A DNA stretch of 64,000 nucleotides from Escherichia phage ECML-10 (OL631479.1), one strand, 5' to 3'; numbered from the stretch's first letter, positions 2,022 through 27,589 are shown. The notes: generated by a model not told the origin, from the letters alone. A program made the numbers and translations.

Positions 2022-2576
2022 TTACTCCCCGCTGTCAATAGCAAGACTCATTGCAATACGGTATGCCTCTTCTAATGGTAAGAGTCTCCCCCACACATCC
2101 CAACCGACATCAAGCTGCCTGCCAAACAACTGTTGTGTGGTTCCGTGAGCATGACCGAACAGTTGGACTGATCCATGAGGCTTTCTGTTCCACTTTGCAA
2201 ACTGGTAATGGCTCATACAGATCAAATTCTTGTTGTGGCGAAGCTCGTAATAATCTACAACCTCGTGATAGAACTCTTTCATAATTCTGACAGTCGTCCT
2301 TGTGTCATGGTTGCCACGAACAAGAATAATATGTCCGTTCAACATATTTAGAATATCCGGGAGTAAGTTGTTGATATTCTTATCATTAGTGCACGCAATA
2401 TCTCCCAAGTGGAACACAGTGTCTGCAGGTGACACAACAGAGTTCCACTCGGCGATGATTCCTGCATTCATACTGTCAAGATTGTGATCATACTGAGATC
2501 TGTGTTTTTGACATGAATCAAACTCCATGACCCGCTGGTGGAGAAAGTGTGTGTCGCTTGTTACAAAGTATTTCAT
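2022..2576 (-). CDS. calcineurin-like metallophosphoesterase (protein/polynucleotide phosphatase)
   Basis: Start moved to internal ATG (MKYFVTSDTHF); motifs DxH, GDIACTNDKN, GNHD, GHAH typical of the family. Confidence 0.75.
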   Translation of the reverse strand: MKYFVTSDTHFLHQRVMEFDSCQKHRSQYDHNLDSMNAGIIAEWNSVVSPADTVFHLGDIACTNDKNINNLLPDILNMLNGHIILVRGNHDTRTTVRIMKEFYHEVVDYYELRHNKNLICMSHYQFAKWNRKPHGSVQLFGHAHGTTQQLFGRQLDVGWDVWGRLLPLEEAYRIAMSLAIDSGE

Positions 2577-2583
2577 ACATTCC

Positions 2584-2994
2584 TCATTTAAGTTTAATGC
2601 AGTTTTTAAGCTGGCGTTCCATACGATCCACAACCCTGTCTGGAACATCATGAATGCTTTTATTACCGTGGCGGTTTTCAACCACGATCACGGTATAACT
2701 ATACCCATGACTGATTGCCATGTCAATATATTCTTGCACATGTTTTTCTTTTGTAAACGTATTACTTACCACGATACGGTCGTATCCCATACGCATCATA
2801 TCTTCTACGTTATCTTTGCACCATTTTGCTGCAAGTGTTACTTTACTTGCATCCCAGTTGTAATTTCCGTCATCGTCGTACCAGAACATGTCGTTCTCAA
2901 AATGTGGATACAGACCTTCTAAAGATAGAGCATTTGCCAGTGTTGATTTGCCAGACCCTGGTATACCACGCACGATATATAGCATTTTAGACAT
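2584..2994 (-). CDS. polynucleotide kinase-like P-loop kinase (T4 Pnkp kinase-domain homolog)
   Basis: Start moved to ATG 2994 (SD GGGGGA); P-loop GIPGSGKST, RIVVSNT and HDVPDRVV align with T4 Pnkp N-terminal kinase domain. Confidence 0.65.
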   Translation of the reverse strand: MSKMLYIVRGIPGSGKSTLANALSLEGLYPHFENDMFWYDDDGNYNWDASKVTLAAKWCKDNVEDMMRMGYDRIVVSNTFTKEKHVQEYIDMAISHGYSYTVIVVENRHGNKSIHDVPDRVVDRMERQLKNCIKLK

Positions 2995-3112
2995 AGCAAT
3001 CCCCCGTTTTAATTTTAATGATAGTATACCTAACTGTTTTGTTAATTTCAAGTGTTGACACTAGGTTGTTTGTGTGGCAGGATAGACTGACAAAATGACA
3101 AATGAGGAACGT

Positions 3113-22560: not shown

Positions 22561-22839
22561 ATGAGCTGCGAAAAATCTTTTTTCATCATCATTTACGGTA
22601 AGGATAACTGCCCACATTGTGTCAGAGCAAAAGAATTTGCAATCAGCAAAGGTCTGCCTTTTGTATATAAGACACTTGGCGAGGGCTACACAAAAGAAGA
22701 GCTTATTGAGAAGTGTAGTCCAATCGTCCCCCGAACGTTGCCGCAGATCTTCTTAGAAAGCGATCTTGACAGTATCCATATAGGCGGTGCCGACGATTTC
22801 ATCTCTTTTGTTAAGAATGGTTTTGGAGAGAAAAAGTGA
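22561..22839 (+). CDS. glutaredoxin-like redoxin
   Basis: CPHC active site, GGADDF motif, 92 aa, between nrdB and nrdD. Confidence 0.7.
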   Translation: MSCEKSFFIIIYGKDNCPHCVRAKEFAISKGLPFVYKTLGEGYTKEELIEKCSPIVPRTLPQIFLESDLDSIHIGGADDFISFVKNGFGEKK

Positions 22840-23681
22840 AAGTTGTAAAACGGGACGGTAGAGAAGAGTTCTATAACGGAATTAAGGTGATCAAGGCGGC
22901 AGAGTCCGCCTTATTTGAGTCTGGACATACTGAAGAAGAAGCTTACCGGATCGCCTGCGAGGTTAATGAAGTTGTTGCTAACAATCTACCAACCGACCAG
23001 TGCACGATCTCTGTAAAAAATATCCATATCCTTGTTGAAGACGCTCTTATGGATATGGGTTTAAAATGTGCAGCCAGAGAATACATCCAGTATAGGCAGA
23101 CAAGAGATAATAACAGAGAGGCAGGTGGAAAACTGCTCGCAGATATTAGTGGCTTCTTGGATCGCACTTGTGATGAATTTACAAAAGAAAACGCAAATAA
23201 GCCTACCAATCATGTACACACTCATCGTGACCTGCTTGCAGGCATCCTTAGCAAACACCTTGCATCAACACAGATCCTGCCAGACCGTGTCTCAGAAGAG
23301 CACAATAAAGGCTTCATCCATGTGCATGATCTTGACTACTTGATCAGTCCGTTAACAAACTGTTGTTTGGTAAATTATCCAGATATGTTGGAAAACGGAT
23401 TCAACATTGGTAACGCCCATGTCAGTAAGCCGAAGTCAATAGGGGTTGCAACAACAATCCTTAGCCAAATCTCTAGTGCGGTAGCTAGTGCTCAATATGG
23501 GGGTCAGACTATGAGCCATATTGATCATTATCTGGCACAGTATGCTGAAGCGACCTATGAGAAGAACCTTAAATTTTGCCAGGAACATTGGTTGCCAGAT
23601 GCTGAGACTGTTGCAATGCAAATGACAGATAAAGACGTATTTGACAGTATGCAGACATTACTTTATCAAATCAACACGTTA
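22836..23681 (+). CDS. nrdD: anaerobic ribonucleotide reductase NrdD, exon 1 (3' boundary approximate)
   Basis: MKVVKRDGREEFYNGIK ATP cone aligns with E. coli NrdD N-terminus; frame stops at 23697 just after conserved NTL. Confidence 0.7.
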
Positions 23682-24483
23682 ACCTCTGTCAACGGTTAAC
23701 AAACTGGCCGTTGTAAAACTCTCCTAACCTCATAAGAGGGGTCGGTAAATCCGGCTAACGGGGAACGCTAAGGCGAAAGCTATGCCAATCCCGTGACTAG
23801 TTCTTACAGGAGTTGGAACGGTTGTAACGACTAACGAAAGGCAGAGATGCTTGACAAACATTTCTGAACCAAGTAGTGTAGGGGTTAGTTGAAATACTAA
23901 CTTCGAAATGGAGAGGCTCTATGAAAAAGATCATTCTTAATGGTGAAGAATCAAACTATGTGATTGATGAGGTTGGAAACGTATACGGAAAACGTGGAAT
24001 GCTACACCCAATATTGTGGGGAGGTTATGGAAAAGGTAACAAGCATGTTAAACGCCGTTATATGTACTCTTTCAACCACAAAGGTAAAAAGATTCGAATC
24101 CAAACCTCAAGGATTGTTGCCTTGTATTGTTTGCCGGATGTCCCAGAAGACCCTGAAAACTGGGAAGTGAATCATAAAGATGGCAATACATTGAATGATC
24201 ATCCGTCTAACCTAGAGTGGGTTTTGCCGGAAGATAATAAGAGACATGCTTTCCGAACAGGACTTTGTCCAGGTAAGTGCTATAGGAAAGTGCAGGCATA
24301 CAAAGGGAAAACCTTGGTGGGTGAATATCCTTCACTCTATGCCTGTGCAAAAGCCTTAAATTTGAACGTAGGTAACGTTCATAGGGCTATCGAAGGAAAT
24401 GCCGAAGGTAAGCATCTCACAATAAAGGGTTATTATCTTATTGAAGTAGAGTAAGAGATAGTCTGGCCCTGTGGAAACACAGG
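23682..24483 (+). mobile_element. probable group I intron interrupting nrdD (boundaries approximate)
   Basis: About 800 nt between two nrdD halves whose products align contiguously with E. coli NrdD; contains a free-standing HNH ORF; exon 1 would end in T and the proposed intron in G. Confidence 0.5.
23921..24454 (+). CDS. intron-encoded HNH homing endonuclease
   Basis: VNHKDGNTLNDHPSNLEWV HNH motif; NUMOD-like YVIDEVGNVYGKRG; SD GGAGAGG. Confidence 0.7.
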   Translation: MKKIILNGEESNYVIDEVGNVYGKRGMLHPILWGGYGKGNKHVKRRYMYSFNHKGKKIRIQTSRIVALYCLPDVPEDPENWEVNHKDGNTLNDHPSNLEWVLPEDNKRHAFRTGLCPGKCYRKVQAYKGKTLVGEYPSLYACAKALNLNVGNVHRAIEGNAEGKHLTIKGYYLIEVE

Positions 24484-25756
24484 GAGGAGACAGCAGACTC
24501 CATTCATCACATTAAGTTTAGGACTGGATACCTCGGTCTTTGGTAGAATGATTACCAAAAACTACTTGAAAGTCCACAAAATGGGTCTTGGTGAAGAACG
24601 TATCACACCTGTGTTCCCTAAAGTGCTGTTCTTCCTAGAAGAGGGTGTCAACATGAACCCTGGAGATCCTAACTATGATTTGAAACGATTAGCTCTGGAA
24701 TGCTCTGCAGAGCGGATTTATCCTGACTTTGTTTCTGTTCCACTAAATCGTAAAGTGACAGGCTCGACAGATGGTAAAGTAACGAGCATGGGTTGCCGGA
24801 GTTTTCTTAGCAAATACAATGACTTGGAAACAGGCGAGGAGAAATACCTTGGTAGATTTAACTTAGGCGTTGTTAGCCTTAACCTGCCAATGATTGCGGC
24901 AAAAGCTAAGACGGAAGGTGTTGATTTCTTTGCCGTTCTTGACGAGTATCTGGATTTGGCATATGAAGCTCACCTTGTAAGGGTTAACCGTCTGAAAGGC
25001 ACCAAAGCAGGGCAGAACCCTATCATGTGGTGTGAAGGCGCTCTTGCTCGCCTGGATCCTGAAGAGAGTATTGATAAACTCTTCTATGACGGGTACGCTT
25101 CCATCAGTATTGGGTATATTGGTGTGTATGAAACCTGTCAGATTTTGGGCAGGGAGGGTGACAAGGCTTTAGCTCTTGGAATACTTCAGCACATGAGAGA
25201 TGCTTGTGAGCGATACAAGAAGGAAAGTAGACTAGCGTTTAGCTTGTACGGCACCCCTTCTGAGAGTCTATGCTATAAAGCTGCAACCTGTCTGGATCGT
25301 GAATATCCTGAAGTGTTGAAGCACGAGCATGAATATCTCACCAACAGTTTCCATCAGCCAGTATGGATCAATAGCTCTCCTTTTGATAAGTGGGAGTATG
25401 AGGAAGGTTTTGCTATGATCTCCTCTGGTGGCAACATCGGATACGTAGAGACACCAAATCTGAAAAACAACTTAGATGCTTTGGAAGCTCTTGTTGATTT
25501 CGGATATAAACACATTATGTATTTTGGTATCAACCAGCCTGTGGATAAATGTCTCAAGTGTGGTTTCTCTGGTGAGTTCAGTGCAACAGCTAAAGGCTTT
25601 GTATGCCCAGAGTGCGGAAACCATGAAGAGGGAACGATCAGCGTAATTCGACGTGTGTCTGGATACCTTTCCAGTCCTAACTCTCGTCCTTACAATAAAG
25701 GTAAGCAAGCGGAAGTTATCGAGCGAGTTAAGCACTACGGAAGTTGTGGTTGCTGA
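24484..25756 (+). CDS. nrdD: anaerobic ribonucleotide reductase NrdD, exon 2 (5' boundary approximate)
   Basis: GLDTSVFGRM...EEGVNMNPGDPNYD aligns with E. coli NrdD; C-terminal Zn ribbon and glycyl-radical motif RVSGYL. Confidence 0.7.
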
Positions 25757-25822: not shown

Positions 25823-26950
25823 GTGTCCAGAAAACTTACAACAGATGAGTTTATAAAGAGGGCAAAAGCAGTTCATGGAGATAAGTATGATTACTCTAAG
25901 GTTGAGTATGTAAATGCCTGCACCAAGGTTATAATTATCTGCCCATATCATGGAGAATTTGAACAAGCTACCCACCAACACCTTGCAGGACGAGGCTGCC
26001 GGGAATGTGGAAAGCTAAAAATGGCACAAAGCCACATTATACCACATAAGGAGTGGTTGAATGTTATCCAAGAGGTCAATCCTTATGTCGAAGTGATTGG
26101 AGAAATAATAAGCTGCAGAACAAAAGTGCCGTGCCGCTGCAAAATTTGCAGTCATGAATGGTCAGCAATGCCTTATCTTCTTAAACAAGGACATGGGTGC
26201 CCTAGATGCGGCAAGCTAAAATTCGCACAAAGCAGAGCTATAGCCCATACCGAGTGGGTCGAGGACATAACGAAGAAAAATACATATATTGAAATAGTAG
26301 AAAGGGTTAAAAATAGCGATACACCAGTATTGGCACGATGCAAAATTTGTAGTCATGAATGGTTAGCAAGACCATCCCATCTTAAACGAGGGCATGGGTG
26401 CCCTAGATGTAAAGGCAATGCAAAGAGATCCCATGTGGAATGGGTAGGGCATATAAAGGTTGTCAATCCAAGTATTAAAGTGCTTGGAAAAATTAAAAAC
26501 GGCAGTGCAAAAGTATTATGTAGGTGTAAGATTTGTGATTATGAATGGTCTCCTGCTCCTATTAGGCTCAAGCAAGGACATGGGTGCCCTAGATGTGCTA
26601 ACTACGGCTTTTTATCGTACAATCACGGCAAACTTTACATTATGGTTGATGACTTAGAAGTACCAACACTTATGAAGATCGGTATTAGCGTCAGTGTCGA
26701 AGAGAGAAAAGATAGGATATTGAAAAGTGCCAAAAGGGCAGGGGTAGGTATTTATGATCTCTACCTGGCGAAAACGTGGGAAGGATCAACTCAAAACATG
26801 GCAGATTTAGAAAAATCTGTGCATAAGGCCTTCAGCAAGTATAAAATAAACTTCCCTGTAAAATTTGATGGTAGCACAGAATTCTTCTACTACAGGCCTG
26901 AAGTGTTTGACACGGTGGAAGAAGTATACAGGAAGATTTGTGGTAAATGA
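25823..26950 (+). CDS. T5orf172-domain (GIY-YIG superfamily) putative homing endonuclease with four N-terminal Zn-ribbon repeats
   Basis: Four CxxC...GHGCPRC modules; C-terminal KLYIMVDD...LMKIGISVSVEERKDRI resembles the T5orf172 domain; GTG start. Confidence 0.6.
   Translation: MSRKLTTDEFIKRAKAVHGDKYDYSKVEYVNACTKVIIICPYHGEFEQATHQHLAGRGCRECGKLKMAQSHIIPHKEWLNVIQEVNPYVEVIGEIISCRTKVPCRCKICSHEWSAMPYLLKQGHGCPRCGKLKFAQSRAIAHTEWVEDITKKNTYIEIVERVKNSDTPVLARCKICSHEWLARPSHLKRGHGCPRCKGNAKRSHVEWVGHIKVVNPSIKVLGKIKNGSAKVLCRCKICDYEWSPAPIRLKQGHGCPRCANYGFLSYNHGKLYIMVDDLEVPTLMKIGISVSVEERKDRILKSAKRAGVGIYDLYLAKTWEGSTQNMADLEKSVHKAFSKYKINFPVKFDGSTEFFYYRPEVFDTVEEVYRKICGK
26104..26610 (+). repeat. intragenic tandem repeats (about 190-200 nt period) encoding the Zn-ribbon modules
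   Basis: Near-identical stretches GCAAAATTTG(C/T)AGTCATGAATGG and GGACATGGGTGCCCTAGATG recur three times. Confidence 0.6.
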
Positions 26951-27002: not shown

Positions 27003-27119
27003 ATGTCATCGGGTATCTATAAAATCTGCAAGTGCGGTTGTCATTGTAATCTTCGTTGGTGCAAGGCACTGGACGATTTTATTTGGCATTGCCCTAAATG
27101 TGATGCGGAGTATCTATGA
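27003..27119 (+). CDS. Cys-rich 38-aa micro-protein (putative zinc ribbon)
   Basis: SD AAGGAGG before ATG 27003; 8 Cys in 38 aa (CKCGCHC...CPKC); stop overlaps nrdG start (ATGA). Confidence 0.4.
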   Translation: MSSGIYKICKCGCHCNLRWCKALDDFIWHCPKCDAEYL

Positions 27120-27589
27120 ACATTGCCGGATACACAGAAATATCTTACACCGAAGGGCCAGGTATTAGAACTGCCTTATGGGTATCTGGGTGCCCACACG
27201 CCTGCCCTGGTTGCTTTAATCAGGCATTTTGGTCAAAAGATAAAGGAAGAGAGTTCACTGAAGAAGACTTGCAAAAAATCTTGTCAGATTTAGATAACCC
27301 GTCTGTGTGCGGTATCTCTCTGCTGGGTGGAGAACCCTTAGCATACTATAATGAGCCAGATATTATTAACCTGATGGAGAAAATTAAGGAAAAATTTGGT
27401 GACAAGAAAACTATTCTTGTATATACTGGGTTCACATTTGACCATATCTCTAGCGATGTTCTTAAACTGGCTGATATCATCATTGACGGTAAGTATGTAA
27501 AAGATTTACCAACCAAGAAACCGTTCCGAGGTAGCGATAACCAAAGAATGTTTAAAAAAGTATCAGGCGGTTGGGTTCAGGTAGACTAG
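27116..27589 (+). CDS. nrdG: anaerobic ribonucleotide reductase activating protein (radical SAM)
   Basis: Radical-SAM cysteine cluster GCPHACPGC; 157 aa. Confidence 0.85.
   Translation: MNIAGYTEISYTEGPGIRTALWVSGCPHACPGCFNQAFWSKDKGREFTEEDLQKILSDLDNPSVCGISLLGGEPLAYYNEPDIINLMEKIKEKFGDKKTILVYTGFTFDHISSDVLKLADIIIDGKYVKDLPTKKPFRGSDNQRMFKKVSGGWVQVD

What the first reader, a model, noticed from the sequence alone, without database searches (positions are those of the whole stretch)
22836..25756. nrdD split by a probable group I intron carrying an HNH homing endonuclease
Two ORFs (22836-23699 and 24548-25756) together align with E. coli NrdD. The first ends right after the conserved NTL, and the in-frame sequence upstream of the second ORF's Met already encodes NrdD residues (GLDTSVFGRM...). 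The roughly 800-nt insert contains a free-standing HNH endonuclease gene (23921-24454) with its own SD. A candidate splice joins T23680 to G24484, giving ...QINTL-RRQQTPF..., with the intron ending in G. This is my best guess, not a computed boundary.
Basis: partly seen in the sequence, partly recalled or inferred. Interest (0 to 1): 0.65.

Follow-up and report, generated by a model that had tools for sequence, protein, structure and literature searches.

The report
Group I intron splitting phage nrdD

Summary
The proposed splice junction is wrong.

- **Origin:** the window comes from a Vequintavirus (rV5-like) coliphage.
- **Boundaries:** nrdD is split by a 797-nt insert, 23697-24493. Six intron-less relatives, rV5 among them, read ...AACGGG|CAAACT... 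exactly where the window reads ...AACGGT|[797 nt]|CAGACT....
- **Spliced product:** a 707-aa NrdD reading NTLTSVNG|QTPF, collinear with T4 NrdD.
- **RNA fold:** the insert folds as a T4-td-like group IA2 intron.
  - P1 has a U23696·G23707 wobble, and G24493 is the terminal G.
  - P3-P9 are present, with P7.1/P7.2 and the P3/P7 pseudoknot.
  - Of 78 pairs, 97.9% are paired and 10 show compensatory changes against a 257-nt ORF-less version found in 14 relatives.
- **Rfam:** RF00028 gives only sub-threshold hits (27.7-29.8 bits, E down to 8e-6). The proven T4 td intron also falls below threshold, and the T4 nrdB intron is not detected at all.
- **HNH gene:** the ORF (23921-24454) lies in the P8 loop, resembles I-HmuI, and is under purifying selection. 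Its Shine-Dalgarno sequence is the 3' strand of P3.
- **Prior annotation:** GenBank records of near-identical phages already annotate nrdD as a joined CDS with a nested homing endonuclease.

Splicing itself remains untested. Low novelty.

The parts
22836..23696 (+). nrdD exon 1 (287 codons; GTG start with GGAGAG Shine-Dalgarno; ATP-cone plus N-terminal part of the NrdD barrel; ends ...NTLTSVNG, GGT)
   Evidence: The boundary is fixed by intron-less alleles.
23697..24493 (+). Group IA2 intron, 797 nt. It begins UAA, which is the stop of the exon-1 ORF, and ends with terminal G24493.
   Evidence: boundaries; RF00028 hits; structure.
23690..23713 (+). P1 hairpin. Exon bases 23690-23696 plus intron bases 23697-23698 pair with the internal guide 23705-23713. 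The U23696·G23707 wobble marks the 5' splice site.
   Evidence: helix 1: 9 pairs, 100% paired, with a C-G to A-U compensatory change between the two intron types. Reproduced by MFE folding.
23719..23724 (+). P3 5' strand (CUCUCC)
   Evidence: Pairs with 23910-23915. helix 2, has one compensatory C-G/G-C change and a U-A/U·G change. The long-range pair is also found by the unconstrained MFE fold.
23728..23755 (+). Two small extra hairpins (23728-23739 and 23741-23755) inserted between P3 and the J3/4-P4 junction. They are absent from the T4 td and T4 nrdD introns.
   Evidence: helices 3 and 4 (a G-C/C-G compensatory change plus an inserted A-U pair).. Comparison with T4 sequences.
23759..23793 (+). 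P4 (23759-63 / 23789-93) enclosing P5 (23767-85, GAAA loop)
   Evidence: Invariant among the variants (helices 5-7). The motif AACGGGGAA...CAAUCCCGUG is shared with T4 td.
23795..23823 (+). P6 / P6a
   Evidence: helix 8: two compensatory pairs.
23828..23833 (+). P7 5' strand (CGACUA). It forms a pseudoknot with 24459-24465.
   Evidence: helix 9. UAACGACUA is shared with T4 td, T4 nrdD and the second intron of phita32.
23834..23877 (+). P7.1, expanded by a 35-nt hairpin relative to the ORF-less intron form
   Evidence: (helix 10).
23881..23904 (+). P7.2
   Evidence: helix 11 (one compensatory pair). The GUAGGG...GAAA(C/U) context matches T4 td and T4 nrdD.
23910..23915 (+). P3 3' strand (GGAGAG), which is also the Shine-Dalgarno sequence of the HNH ORF
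   Evidence: direct reading of the sequence.
23917..24451 (+). P8 (23917-22 pairs with 24446-51). The HNH ORF fills its loop, and the AUG 23921-23 lies in the 5' strand of P8.
   Evidence: helix 12: three compensatory pairs out of six.
23921..24454 (+). Intron-encoded HNH homing-endonuclease gene (177 aa, I-HmuI-like). Its stop codon UAA lies in J8/7.
   Evidence: HNH_3; PHROG 59; 1U3E I-HmuI, E=2.7e-4, residues 8-160; substitutions mostly at third codon positions.
24459..24465 (+). P7 3' strand (UAGUCUG, one bulged U), preceded by J8/7 UAAGAGA
   Evidence: aligned to the RF00028 AAGAUAUAGUCU consensus, helix 9.
24467..24484 (+). P9 hairpin with GAAA tetraloop
   Evidence: helix 13 (one compensatory pair, one G-C/G·U change).
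24485..24493 (+). 3' tail AGGAGACAG ending in the terminal guanosine G24493
   Evidence: These 9 nt are absent from all six intron-less alleles examined.
24494..25756 (+). nrdD exon 2 (420 codons plus stop). It starts CAG ACU CCA = QTP and contains the MGCRSF active-site Cys, a Zn-ribbon and the RVSGY glycyl-radical motif.

Best explanation
Window 23697-24493 is a mobile group I intron of subgroup IA2 (T4-td-like) inserted in the class III ribonucleotide reductase gene nrdD of an rV5-like (Vequintavirus) coliphage.

Inferred mechanism:
- The nrdD pre-mRNA folds so that exon bases 23690-23696 pair with the internal guide 23707-13 (P1, U23696·G23707).
- An exogenous guanosine bound in P7 attacks after U23696. 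The freed exon 1 then attacks after the terminal G24493.
- This joins GGU|CAG and yields a 707-aa NrdD (…NTLTSVNG-QTPF…). The intron's first three bases, UAA, stop translation of unspliced RNA.

The P8 loop carries a 177-aa I-HmuI-like HNH endonuclease. During mixed infection it presumably nicks or cuts intron-less nrdD alleles near …GTCAACGGG|CAAACTCC…. Recombinational repair then copies the intron, with co-conversion of neighbouring synonymous sites.

The ORF's Shine-Dalgarno sequence is the 3' strand of P3 and its AUG lies in P8. Ribozyme folding and endonuclease translation should therefore be mutually exclusive.

Shown here: exact boundaries, RNA architecture with covariation, an intact and selected HNH ORF, and the three-way population polymorphism. 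Inferred only: splicing, endonuclease activity and specificity, and homing.
For: 1. **Boundaries.** rV5 and five other intron-less Vequintavirus alleles are collinear and read AACGGG|CAAACT exactly where the window has AACGGT|797 nt|CAGACT. The spliced CDS is 2124 nt, the same as rV5 nrdD.
2. **Protein continuity.** Pfam NRDD matches 1-154 then 155-562. Apart from the 3-residue RRQ gap that came from my trial junction, the alignment to T4 NrdD (1H78) is ungapped across NTLxSxNG-QTPF. That gap disappears with the 24494 junction.
3. **Covariance model.** RF00028 matches at full model length at 27.7 bits (E=8.8e-5) in the window and 29.8 bits (E=8e-6) in the ORF-less form. As calibration, the proven T4 td intron scores only 40.3 bits (below the gathering score of 50) and T4 nrdB gave no RF00028 match at E<=0.05.
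4. **Structure.** The model has 78 pairs in 13 helices with 97.9% of cells paired, against 35-50% when partners are slid. Ten pairs have changes on both sides, in P1, P3, P6, P7.2, P8, P9 and one extra hairpin. Unconstrained MFE folds recover 67/71 and 63/68 of the model's nested pairs, with z=-3.8.
5. **Subgroup.** The order P7 - P7.1 - P7.2 - GAAAC - P3' - P8 - AGAUAGUCUG matches the T4 td and T4 nrdD introns read from NC_000866.
6. **ORF-less form.** A 257-nt version sits at the identical site in 14 records, so the interruption does not depend on the HNH gene.
7. **Splice-site base.** All intron-containing alleles examined have T at -1 (needed for U·G). All six intron-less alleles have G.
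8. **HNH gene.** Pfam HNH_3 is above its cut-off, PHROG 59 matches, and I-HmuI (1U3E) aligns over residues 8-160. In FV3, 15 of 17 substitutions are at third codon positions.
9. **Prior annotation.** GenBank MZ501093 and MZ501048 annotate nrdD as a two-piece join with a nested 'putative homing endonuclease'. The BASEL paper says intron boundaries were set comparatively (PMC8594841).
Against: - No RNA or biochemical evidence of splicing exists for this intron, in the window or in the searchable literature.
- RF00028 does not reach its gathering score.
- P10 is weak: 3 bp in the window type and 2 bp in the ORF-less type.
- The covariation rests on only two diverged intron lineages (7 distinct rows), so the compensatory events are few and not independent. 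My alignment of the variable parts was made by hand.
- The metal-ligand Asp74 of I-HmuI aligns with Asn84 here, so full endonuclease activity is not guaranteed.
- The two-hairpin insertion between P3 and P4 is atypical for the core.
Confidence: 0.9

Rival explanations
1. The gene is split but not spliced. A homing-endonuclease insertion has cut nrdD into two genes whose products assemble after translation, as reported for Aeromonas phage Aeh1 nrdA split by mobE.
For: Most GenBank records annotate two separate nrdD CDSs plus an HNH gene. Non-splicing HEG-split RNR genes exist (PMC3653736 and PMC7344957). RF00028 is below its gathering score.
Against: - A complete group I core with compensatory changes flanks the ORF.
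- The 257-nt ORF-less form interrupts the gene at the same nucleotide.
- Exon 2 has no start codon at the junction. The first ATG (24548) is an internal Met that T4 NrdD also has, 18 codons into conserved sequence.
- The boundaries are flush with intron-less alleles, with U·G at one end and the terminal G at the other.
Confidence: 0.05
2. It is a group I intron, but it uses the 3' splice site the first reader and the Rfam alignment suggest (after G24484, or G24487). That would leave 2-3 extra residues (RRQ/RQ) in NrdD.
For: The RF00028 alignment ends at G24484. G24484 and G24487 are each followed by an in-frame codon if exon 1 ends at 23696.
Against: All six intron-less alleles and T4 NrdD lack these residues; the 9 nt 24485-24493 are simply absent. 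The tail differs in sequence and length between intron types (AGGAGACAG, GUGGGGACCG, GUGGAGACAG), yet in all of them it ends in G immediately before CA(A/G)AC.
Confidence: 0.04
3. It is a degenerate, splicing-dead intron remnant, so nrdD is a pseudogene in this phage.
For: There is an atypical insertion between P3 and P4, a weak P10, and a sub-threshold Rfam score.
Against: - Both exons are intact and in frame, 94-98% identical to those of intron-less relatives, with synonymous-type differences at the junction.
- nrdG is retained.
- Helices are maintained by compensatory changes across two intron lineages present in 41 phage records.
Confidence: 0.03

Closest known systems
Bacteriophage T4 nrdD (sunY) group IA2 intron encoding I-TevII
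   Same: Same host gene (class III RNR large subunit) and the same IA2 architecture. There is no P2. The order is P1 - GUAAAA - P3 - P4/P5 - P6 - P7 - P7.1 - P7.2 - GAAAC - P3' - P8 - AGAUAUAGUCUG. It is a mobile intron with an internal endonuclease gene.
   Different: - The insertion site differs: T4's lies 11 codons upstream (QAYE|YEVNTLFSSNG, against NTLTSVNG|QTPF here).
- The endonuclease family and location differ: GIY-YIG-family I-TevII in the T4 intron, against an HNH in the P8 loop here. That the T4 ORF sits in P9.1 is from memory.
- Sequence similarity is limited to short core motifs.
- T4's intron scores 105 bits on RF00028 against 28-30 here.
- This intron has two extra hairpins between P3 and P4 and only a single P9 hairpin.
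Bacteriophage T4 td intron (I-TevI) and the td-like second nrdD intron of phage phita32 / C2 / JEP1
   Same: The IA2 core motifs are nearly identical: AACGGGGAA…CAAUCCCGUG, UAACGACUA, GUAGGG, GAAAC, AGAUAGUCUG.
   Different: The host gene or site differs. The ORF lies in the P6 region rather than P8. P2 is present in td. The phita32 second intron sits at SMG|CRSF (window 24793|24794) and is absent from the window.
I-HmuI, the HNH nicking homing endonuclease of the Bacillus phage SPO1 DNA-polymerase group I intron (PDB 1U3E). Similar HNH nickases in IA2 phage introns include I-PfoP3I (PMC3428280).
   Same: About the same length (177 against 174 aa) and alignable over residues 8-160. The catalytic His and the two Asn of the HNH/N motif are conserved (H85, N97, N106). 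Both are encoded inside a phage group I intron.
   Different: Similarity is weak (E=2.7e-4). The best phage relatives outside Vequintavirus are below 40% identical in the rows listed. Asp74 of I-HmuI is Asn84 here. Target gene and site differ. Nicking versus double-strand cleavage has not been tested.
The same intron as already annotated in BASEL-collection Vequintaviruses (MaxBurger MZ501093, AlexBoehm MZ501048)
   Same: 97.9% identical over the whole locus. nrdD is annotated as a two-segment join with a nested 'putative homing endonuclease', and the joined lengths are consistent with introns of 797 and 257 nt.
   Different: Those records start nrdD at an internal ATG (+213 nt), which drops the ATP-cone. 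No structure, subgroup or splicing data were found in the searchable literature.

Membership tests
Group I intron (RF00028) | P1 helix formed by the 5' exon end and an internal guide sequence, with a U·G wobble at the 5' splice site | tested here: met
   23690-23698 pairs with 23705-23713, with U23696·G23707. There is a C-G/A-U compensatory change between intron types (helix 1). T at -1 is present in every intron-containing allele examined and in none of the six intron-less alleles.
Group I intron (RF00028) | Terminal guanosine as the last intron nucleotide, with precise in-frame excision | tested here: met
   G24493 precedes CAG ACU. Removing 23697-24493 reproduces the intron-less reading frame and the length of 2124 nt.
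Group I intron (RF00028) | Conserved catalytic core P3-P9, including the P3/P7 pseudoknot and J8/7 | tested here: met
   13 helices, 78 pairs, 97.9% paired, 10 pairs with changes on both sides, and slid controls at 35-50%. MFE folding reproduces the model. J8/7-P7' AAGAGAUAGUCU aligns to the Rfam consensus.
Group I intron (RF00028) | Score at or above Rfam's gathering threshold (50 bits) | tested here: not met
   27.7 bits (window) and 29.8 bits (ORF-less form), with E=8.8e-5 and 8e-6. Calibration: T4 td scores 40.3 bits and T4 nrdB gave no RF00028 match at E<=0.05, although both are annotated group I introns in NC_000866 and are known from the literature to self-splice.
Group I intron (RF00028) | Guanosine-dependent self-splicing of the transcript | not testable with these tools
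   Needs RT-PCR or in vitro splicing.
Subgroup IA2 (T4 td / nrdD / Twort type) | Peripheral P7.1 and P7.2 hairpins between the P7 5' strand and the P3 3' strand | tested here: met
   P7.1 is 23834-77 and P7.2 is 23881-904, followed by GAAAU and P3'. The order and motifs are the same as in T4 td and T4 nrdD read from NC_000866.
Subgroup IA2 (T4 td / nrdD / Twort type) | Short J3/4 directly linking P3 to P4 | tested here: not met
   A 31-nt block of two hairpins plus a repeated UAA (23725-23755) separates P3 from UAA-P4. T4 td and T4 nrdD have only UAAA / UAAAA there. This is a departure in a peripheral feature, not in the core.
HNH homing endonuclease, I-HmuI-like | HNH/N catalytic motif, with family profile matches | tested here: met
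   Pfam HNH_3 29.3 bits (cut-off 24.8). PHROG 59 E=1.5e-26. 1U3E E=2.7e-4 over residues 8-160. H85, N97 and N106 align with H75, N87 and N96 of I-HmuI, but D74 aligns with N84.
HNH homing endonuclease, I-HmuI-like | Site-specific cleavage or nicking of the intron-less allele, and intron homing | not testable with these tools
   Indirect evidence only. There is a three-way presence/absence polymorphism among >90%-identical phages (27 with HNH intron, 14 with ORF-less intron, about 80 intron-less). Synonymous differences specific to each intron type flank the site.
Class III ribonucleotide reductase NrdD | ATP-cone, NrdD barrel, active-site Cys, C-terminal Zn-ribbon and glycyl-radical motif in one polypeptide | tested here: met
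   After removal of the intron: Pfam ATP-cone, NRDD 1-562 contiguous, and Gly_radical. The motifs MGCRSF, CLKC…CPEC and RVSGY are present. T4 NrdD (1H78) matches at E=4.7e-48 over the junction region.
T4 nrdD intron / I-TevII element (same element?) | Same insertion site and same endonuclease family | tested here: not met
   The T4 site is 11 codons upstream. I-TevII is annotated as GIY-YIG-family, not HNH. Only short core motifs are shared.
Non-spliced HEG-split gene (Aeh1 nrdA/mobE type) | No ribozyme; each gene half has its own translation signals | tested here: not met
   A ribozyme core is present. Exon 2 lacks a start at the junction. An ORF-less form exists at the same site.

The most novel reading that the evidence does not exclude
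The most novel reading not excluded is that this is a structurally unusual IA2 ribozyme. It has a covariation-supported two-hairpin module inserted into the normally 3-4-nt J3/4 junction, so the junction would have to tolerate or exploit a peripheral domain. The homing-endonuclease gene's Shine-Dalgarno sequence is the P3 3' strand and its AUG is in P8. Ribosome loading on the HNH ORF and ribozyme folding would then act as a mutually exclusive switch, timing endonuclease expression against nrdD splicing. The coexistence of intron-less, ORF-less and HNH-bearing alleles in otherwise >90%-identical phages would also make this a natural system for watching HEG invasion of a pre-existing intron.
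Probability: 0.3. Interest if true: 0.35.

Novelty: already known. Interest (0 to 1): 0.2.

Why it matters
Mainly for correct annotation. Most public records of these phages list two 'nrdD' fragments and a stray HNH gene, when the likely product is one 707-aa spliced NrdD. The exact boundaries (23696|24494) and the secondary-structure model given here would let annotators join the CDS.

The case also shows that RF00028's gathering threshold misses phage IA2 introns whose core is interrupted by an ORF, or that have extra peripheral hairpins.

Biologically it adds one more example of ribonucleotide reductase genes as hot spots for mobile introns. nrdD in this phage genus has at least two intron sites, and both differ from the T4 site. 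It also offers a tidy three-allele population for homing studies. None of this changes current understanding.

Tried and rejected
Rejected. It deletes the conserved TSVNG and adds RRQ, whereas intron-less alleles and T4 NrdD give TSVNG|QTPF.
- **My first trial junction (23696/24485).** Also rejected, for the 3-residue RRQ insertion.
- **P1 drawn around the palindromic GUUAAC at 23678-23700.** This gives U-A at the splice site and is not maintained in the ORF-less type. Rejected in favour of CAACGGU/GCCGUUG.
- **An alternative 'P2' (CUCUC/GAGGG, 23719-23740).** It works in the window but loses a pair in AlexBoehm, whereas P3 (CUCUCC/GGAGAG against CUCUGC/GCAGGG) is kept by a compensatory change. 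No other P3 5' strand exists.
- **Rfam at gathering threshold.** No hits in the window.
- **MAFFT alignment of the two intron types.** It misaligned P7.1-P8, so I aligned by hand and passed N-padded rows to the tools.
- **My covariance model R1.** It found only the intron itself. It found no further related intron in the window and none of the T4 introns at E<=1.
- **Pairwise local alignment with the T4 introns.** Only 11-27-nt core motifs matched.
- **Promoter and terminator scan.** Nothing convincing inside the intron.
- **Literature searches.** No description of this particular intron. The rV5 paper reports only terminase introns, and rV5's own nrdD is intron-less.
- **tRNA scan.** None in the window.
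Full report
**What is there**

The window belongs to an rV5-like coliphage (Vequintavirus). Region 22836-25756 is 97-98% identical to phages magaca, MaxBurger, isim and FFH2.

The local gene order is thyX, nrdA, nrdB, grx, nrdD (split), an endonuclease-like ORF, nrdG, phoH.

The first covers profile positions 1-154 and has an N-terminal ATP-cone. The sequence from 24485 onward covers positions 155-562 and has a glycyl-radical domain. Between them lies an intact 177-aa HNH ORF, 23921-24454.

**Exact boundaries**

Phage rV5 itself and five further Vequintaviruses have an uninterrupted nrdD. Across the site they read …TCTGTCAACGGG|CAAACTCCATTC…. The window reads …TCTGTCAACGGT|[23697-24493]|CAGACTCCATTC….

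- The insert is therefore exactly 797 nt.
- The spliced CDS is 2124 nt, the same as rV5 nrdD, and encodes 707 aa with …QINTLTSVNG-QTPFITLSLGLDTS….
- T4 NrdD (PDB 1H78) has NTLFSSNG-QTPF at this position. My first trial junction at 24485 produced a 3-residue insertion (RRQ) in that alignment, which disappears with 24494.
The whole first ORF is exon, and its TAA stop is the first three bases of the intron.

**Is it a group I intron?**

Rfam at its gathering threshold finds nothing in the window.

With an E-value threshold, RF00028 matches at full model length:

| Sequence | Bits | E-value |
|---|---|---|
| Window, 1.2-kb region | 27.7 | 8.8e-5 |
| Window, whole | 27.7 | 0.0047 |
| ORF-less relative (AlexBoehm) | 29.8 | 8e-6 |

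As a calibration I ran the same scan on T4:

| T4 intron | RF00028 result |
|---|---|
| nrdD | 105 bits |
| td | 40.3 bits (below the 50-bit cut-off) |
| nrdB | no match at E<=0.05 |

Missing the cut-off is therefore not evidence against a group I intron.

Fourteen phage records carry a 257-nt ORF-less intron at the identical nucleotide, and 27 carry the 797-nt HNH form. The remaining roughly 80 of about 120 Vequintavirus records appear intron-less; the last figure is inferred by subtraction. The two intron forms are about 86% identical where they can be aligned, which gives comparative information.

**Secondary structure**

I aligned the two forms by hand and obtained a complete model. Coordinates were verified.

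| Element | Window coordinates | Note |
|---|---|---|
| P1 | 23690-98 / 23705-13 | U23696·G23707 wobble |
| P3 | 23719-24 / 23910-15 | |
| Extra hairpins | 23728-39 and 23741-55 | |
| P4 | 23759-63 / 23789-93 | |
| P5 | 23767-85 | |
| P6 | 23795-823 | |
| P7 | 23828-33 / 24459-65 | |
| P7.1 | 23834-77 | |
| P7.2 | 23881-904 | |
| P8 | 23917-22 / 24446-51 | |
| P9 | 24467-84 | GAAA loop |
| 3' tail | 24485-93 | ends in the terminal G24493 |

- Over 7 distinct sequences, 78 pairs are 97.9% paired, against 35-50% when partners are slid by 1-3 columns.
- Ten pairs change on both sides: P1, P3, one extra hairpin, P6 (two pairs), P7.2, P8 (three pairs) and P9.
- These changes derive from only two lineages, so they count as a handful of events, not a statistical proof.
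- Independently, unconstrained MFE folding of either form recovers 67/71 and 63/68 of the model's nested pairs, including long-range P3, with z=-3.8.
- The order P7 - P7.1 - P7.2 - GAAAC - P3' - P8 - AGAUAGUCUG, and the motifs AACGGGGAA…CAAUCCCGUG, UAACGACUA and GUAGGG, are those of the T4 td and T4 nrdD introns (read from NC_000866). This places the intron in subgroup IA2.
- Every intron-containing allele examined has T at exon position -1, as the U·G pair requires. All six intron-less alleles examined have G.

**The endonuclease gene**

- The ORF fills the P8 loop. Its AUG lies in the 5' strand of P8, its UAA in J8/7, and its Shine-Dalgarno GGAGAG(G) is the 3' strand of P3.
- By inference, translating the ORF and folding the ribozyme should exclude each other. 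Reviews describe the general issue of ORFs extending into core sequence (PMC3984707).
- The protein matches Pfam HNH_3 above its cut-off and PHROG 59. It aligns over residues 8-160 with I-HmuI, the SPO1 intron nickase (1U3E, E=2.7e-4). H85, N97 and N106 are conserved, but Asn84 stands in place of Asp74.
- Among the phage copies, substitutions fall mostly at third codon positions (15 of 17 in FV3, with 2 amino-acid changes), which indicates purifying selection.
- Outside Vequintavirus, the relatives listed from the phage collection are below 40% identical.

**Mechanism (inferred)**

- Guanosine-initiated two-step transesterification joins GGU|CAG.
- The HNH enzyme nicks or cuts intron-less nrdD alleles during co-infection, and repair copies the intron in.
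- Synonymous differences specific to each intron type on both sides of the site fit co-conversion: TCT GTC AAC GGT|CAG ACT CCA TTC against TCG GTA AAC GGT|CAA ACC CCT TTT.

**Rivals**

- A non-spliced, HEG-split gene of the Aeh1 nrdA/mobE kind is unlikely. A ribozyme core is present, the ORF-less form splits the gene at the same base, and exon 2 has no start at the junction. Its first ATG is an internal Met that T4 NrdD also has.
- A 3' splice site at 24484 or 24487 is contradicted by the intron-less alleles.
- A dead remnant is unlikely, given intact exons, retained nrdG and maintained helices.

**Comparison with known elements, and novelty**

- T4's nrdD intron is the obvious analogue, but it is a different element. 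It sits 11 codons upstream (…QAYE|YEVNTLFSSNG…), encodes the GIY-YIG-family I-TevII, and shares only short core motifs.
- Split nrdD genes are the most common split RNR genes in phages (PMC3653736).
- HNH-bearing introns in Vequintavirinae RNR, polymerase and terminase genes have been shown to splice in phage CB7 (PMC7344957).
- GenBank records from the BASEL collection already annotate this very locus as a joined nrdD CDS with a nested putative homing endonuclease (MaxBurger), and as a joined CDS for the ORF-less form (AlexBoehm, RudolfGeigy). The paper states that intron boundaries were determined comparatively (PMC8594841).
- I found no paper describing its structure or splicing.
- The finding is therefore correct in kind, already known at the annotation level, and of low surprise.
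- The modestly unusual points are the two-hairpin insertion between P3 and P4, the SD/P3' overlap, and the clean three-allele polymorphism.

Noticed in passing
window 25823-26950 (+), between nrdD (ends 25756) and nrdG (27116-27589): A 375-aa ORF with repeated DUF4379/CapR treble-clef zinc-finger units and a C-terminal T5orf172 domain; PHROG 559 and 681 call it an endonuclease. It looks like a free-standing homing-endonuclease-like gene. Most relatives (for example magaca) have only a 117-nt ORF here. No phage record covers more than about 51% of this stretch; partial 80-88% matches occur in JEP1, nom and WalterGehring (annotated there as 'putative homing endonuclease').
   Followed up: partly
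window 24793|24794 (codons …TSMG|CRSF…); L002 (phita32) 2259-3020: Some relatives (phita32, Campylobacter-labelled phage C2, JEP1) carry a second nrdD intron of 762 nt, very like T4 td, with a 169-aa ORF near P6. It sits immediately before the active-site Cys codon. The window lacks it, and its downstream codons differ synonymously (TGC CGG AGT against TGT AGA AGT). RF00028 gives 35.3 bits on its 3' half.
   Followed up: partly
window 23725-23758: There is a two-hairpin insertion between the P3 5' strand and J3/4-P4, bracketed by a repeated UAA, where T4 td and T4 nrdD have only UAAA / UAAAA. Both hairpins are kept by compensatory or added pairs in the ORF-less intron type. I do not know of a named equivalent, and a literature search for P3.1 gave nothing relevant.
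   Followed up: partly
window 23910-23923: The HNH gene's Shine-Dalgarno sequence (GGAGAGG) is the P3 3' strand, and its AUG lies in the P8 5' strand. In MaxBurger an A-to-G change at the position equivalent to 23896 creates an upstream in-frame ATG inside the P7.2 loop. The BASEL annotation uses that ATG as the start.
   Followed up: no
window 23696 and 24496; loci L004, L013-L017: There is a perfect association in the sequences examined. Intron-containing alleles have GGT at the last exon-1 codon, and all six intron-less alleles have GGG. HNH-type introns are followed by CAG; ORF-less introns and intron-less alleles are followed by CAA. This implies the intron-less alleles are not recent precise-loss derivatives.
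   Followed up: yes
window 23834-23877 compared with L001 1300-1309: The HNH-bearing intron form also has a 35-nt hairpin expansion of P7.1 that the ORF-less form lacks. So the two forms differ by more than the presence of the ORF, being about 14% diverged in the core.
   Followed up: partly
window 22836 (GTG) compared with 23049 (ATG): BASEL and some other records start nrdD at the internal ATG, 213 nt downstream. The GTG at 22836 overlaps the grx stop and is preceded by GGAGAG. It gives an N-terminal ATP-cone starting at residue 1 (Pfam E=1.9e-14), so the longer start is probably correct.
   Followed up: partly
L012 and L007 (phage T4): RF00028 at an E-value threshold finds T4 nrdD (105 bits) and td (40.3 bits, below gathering) but gives no match to the T4 nrdB intron. 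Rfam's gathering threshold therefore under-calls ORF-containing phage IA2 introns.
   Followed up: yes
window 24461-24464 with 24488-24491: In MFE folds of both intron types, the P7 3' strand (GUCU) can alternatively pair with the 3' tail (AGAC in the window, GGAC in the ORF-less form) around P9. This could be a P9.0-like or competing pairing. I did not analyse it further.
   Followed up: no
phage collection records labelled 'Campylobacter phage' (for example MG065690 A135, MG065655 C2): About 19 'UNVERIFIED Campylobacter phage' records are Vequintavirus genomes more than 95% identical to coliphages at this locus. The host labels look doubtful.
   Followed up: no
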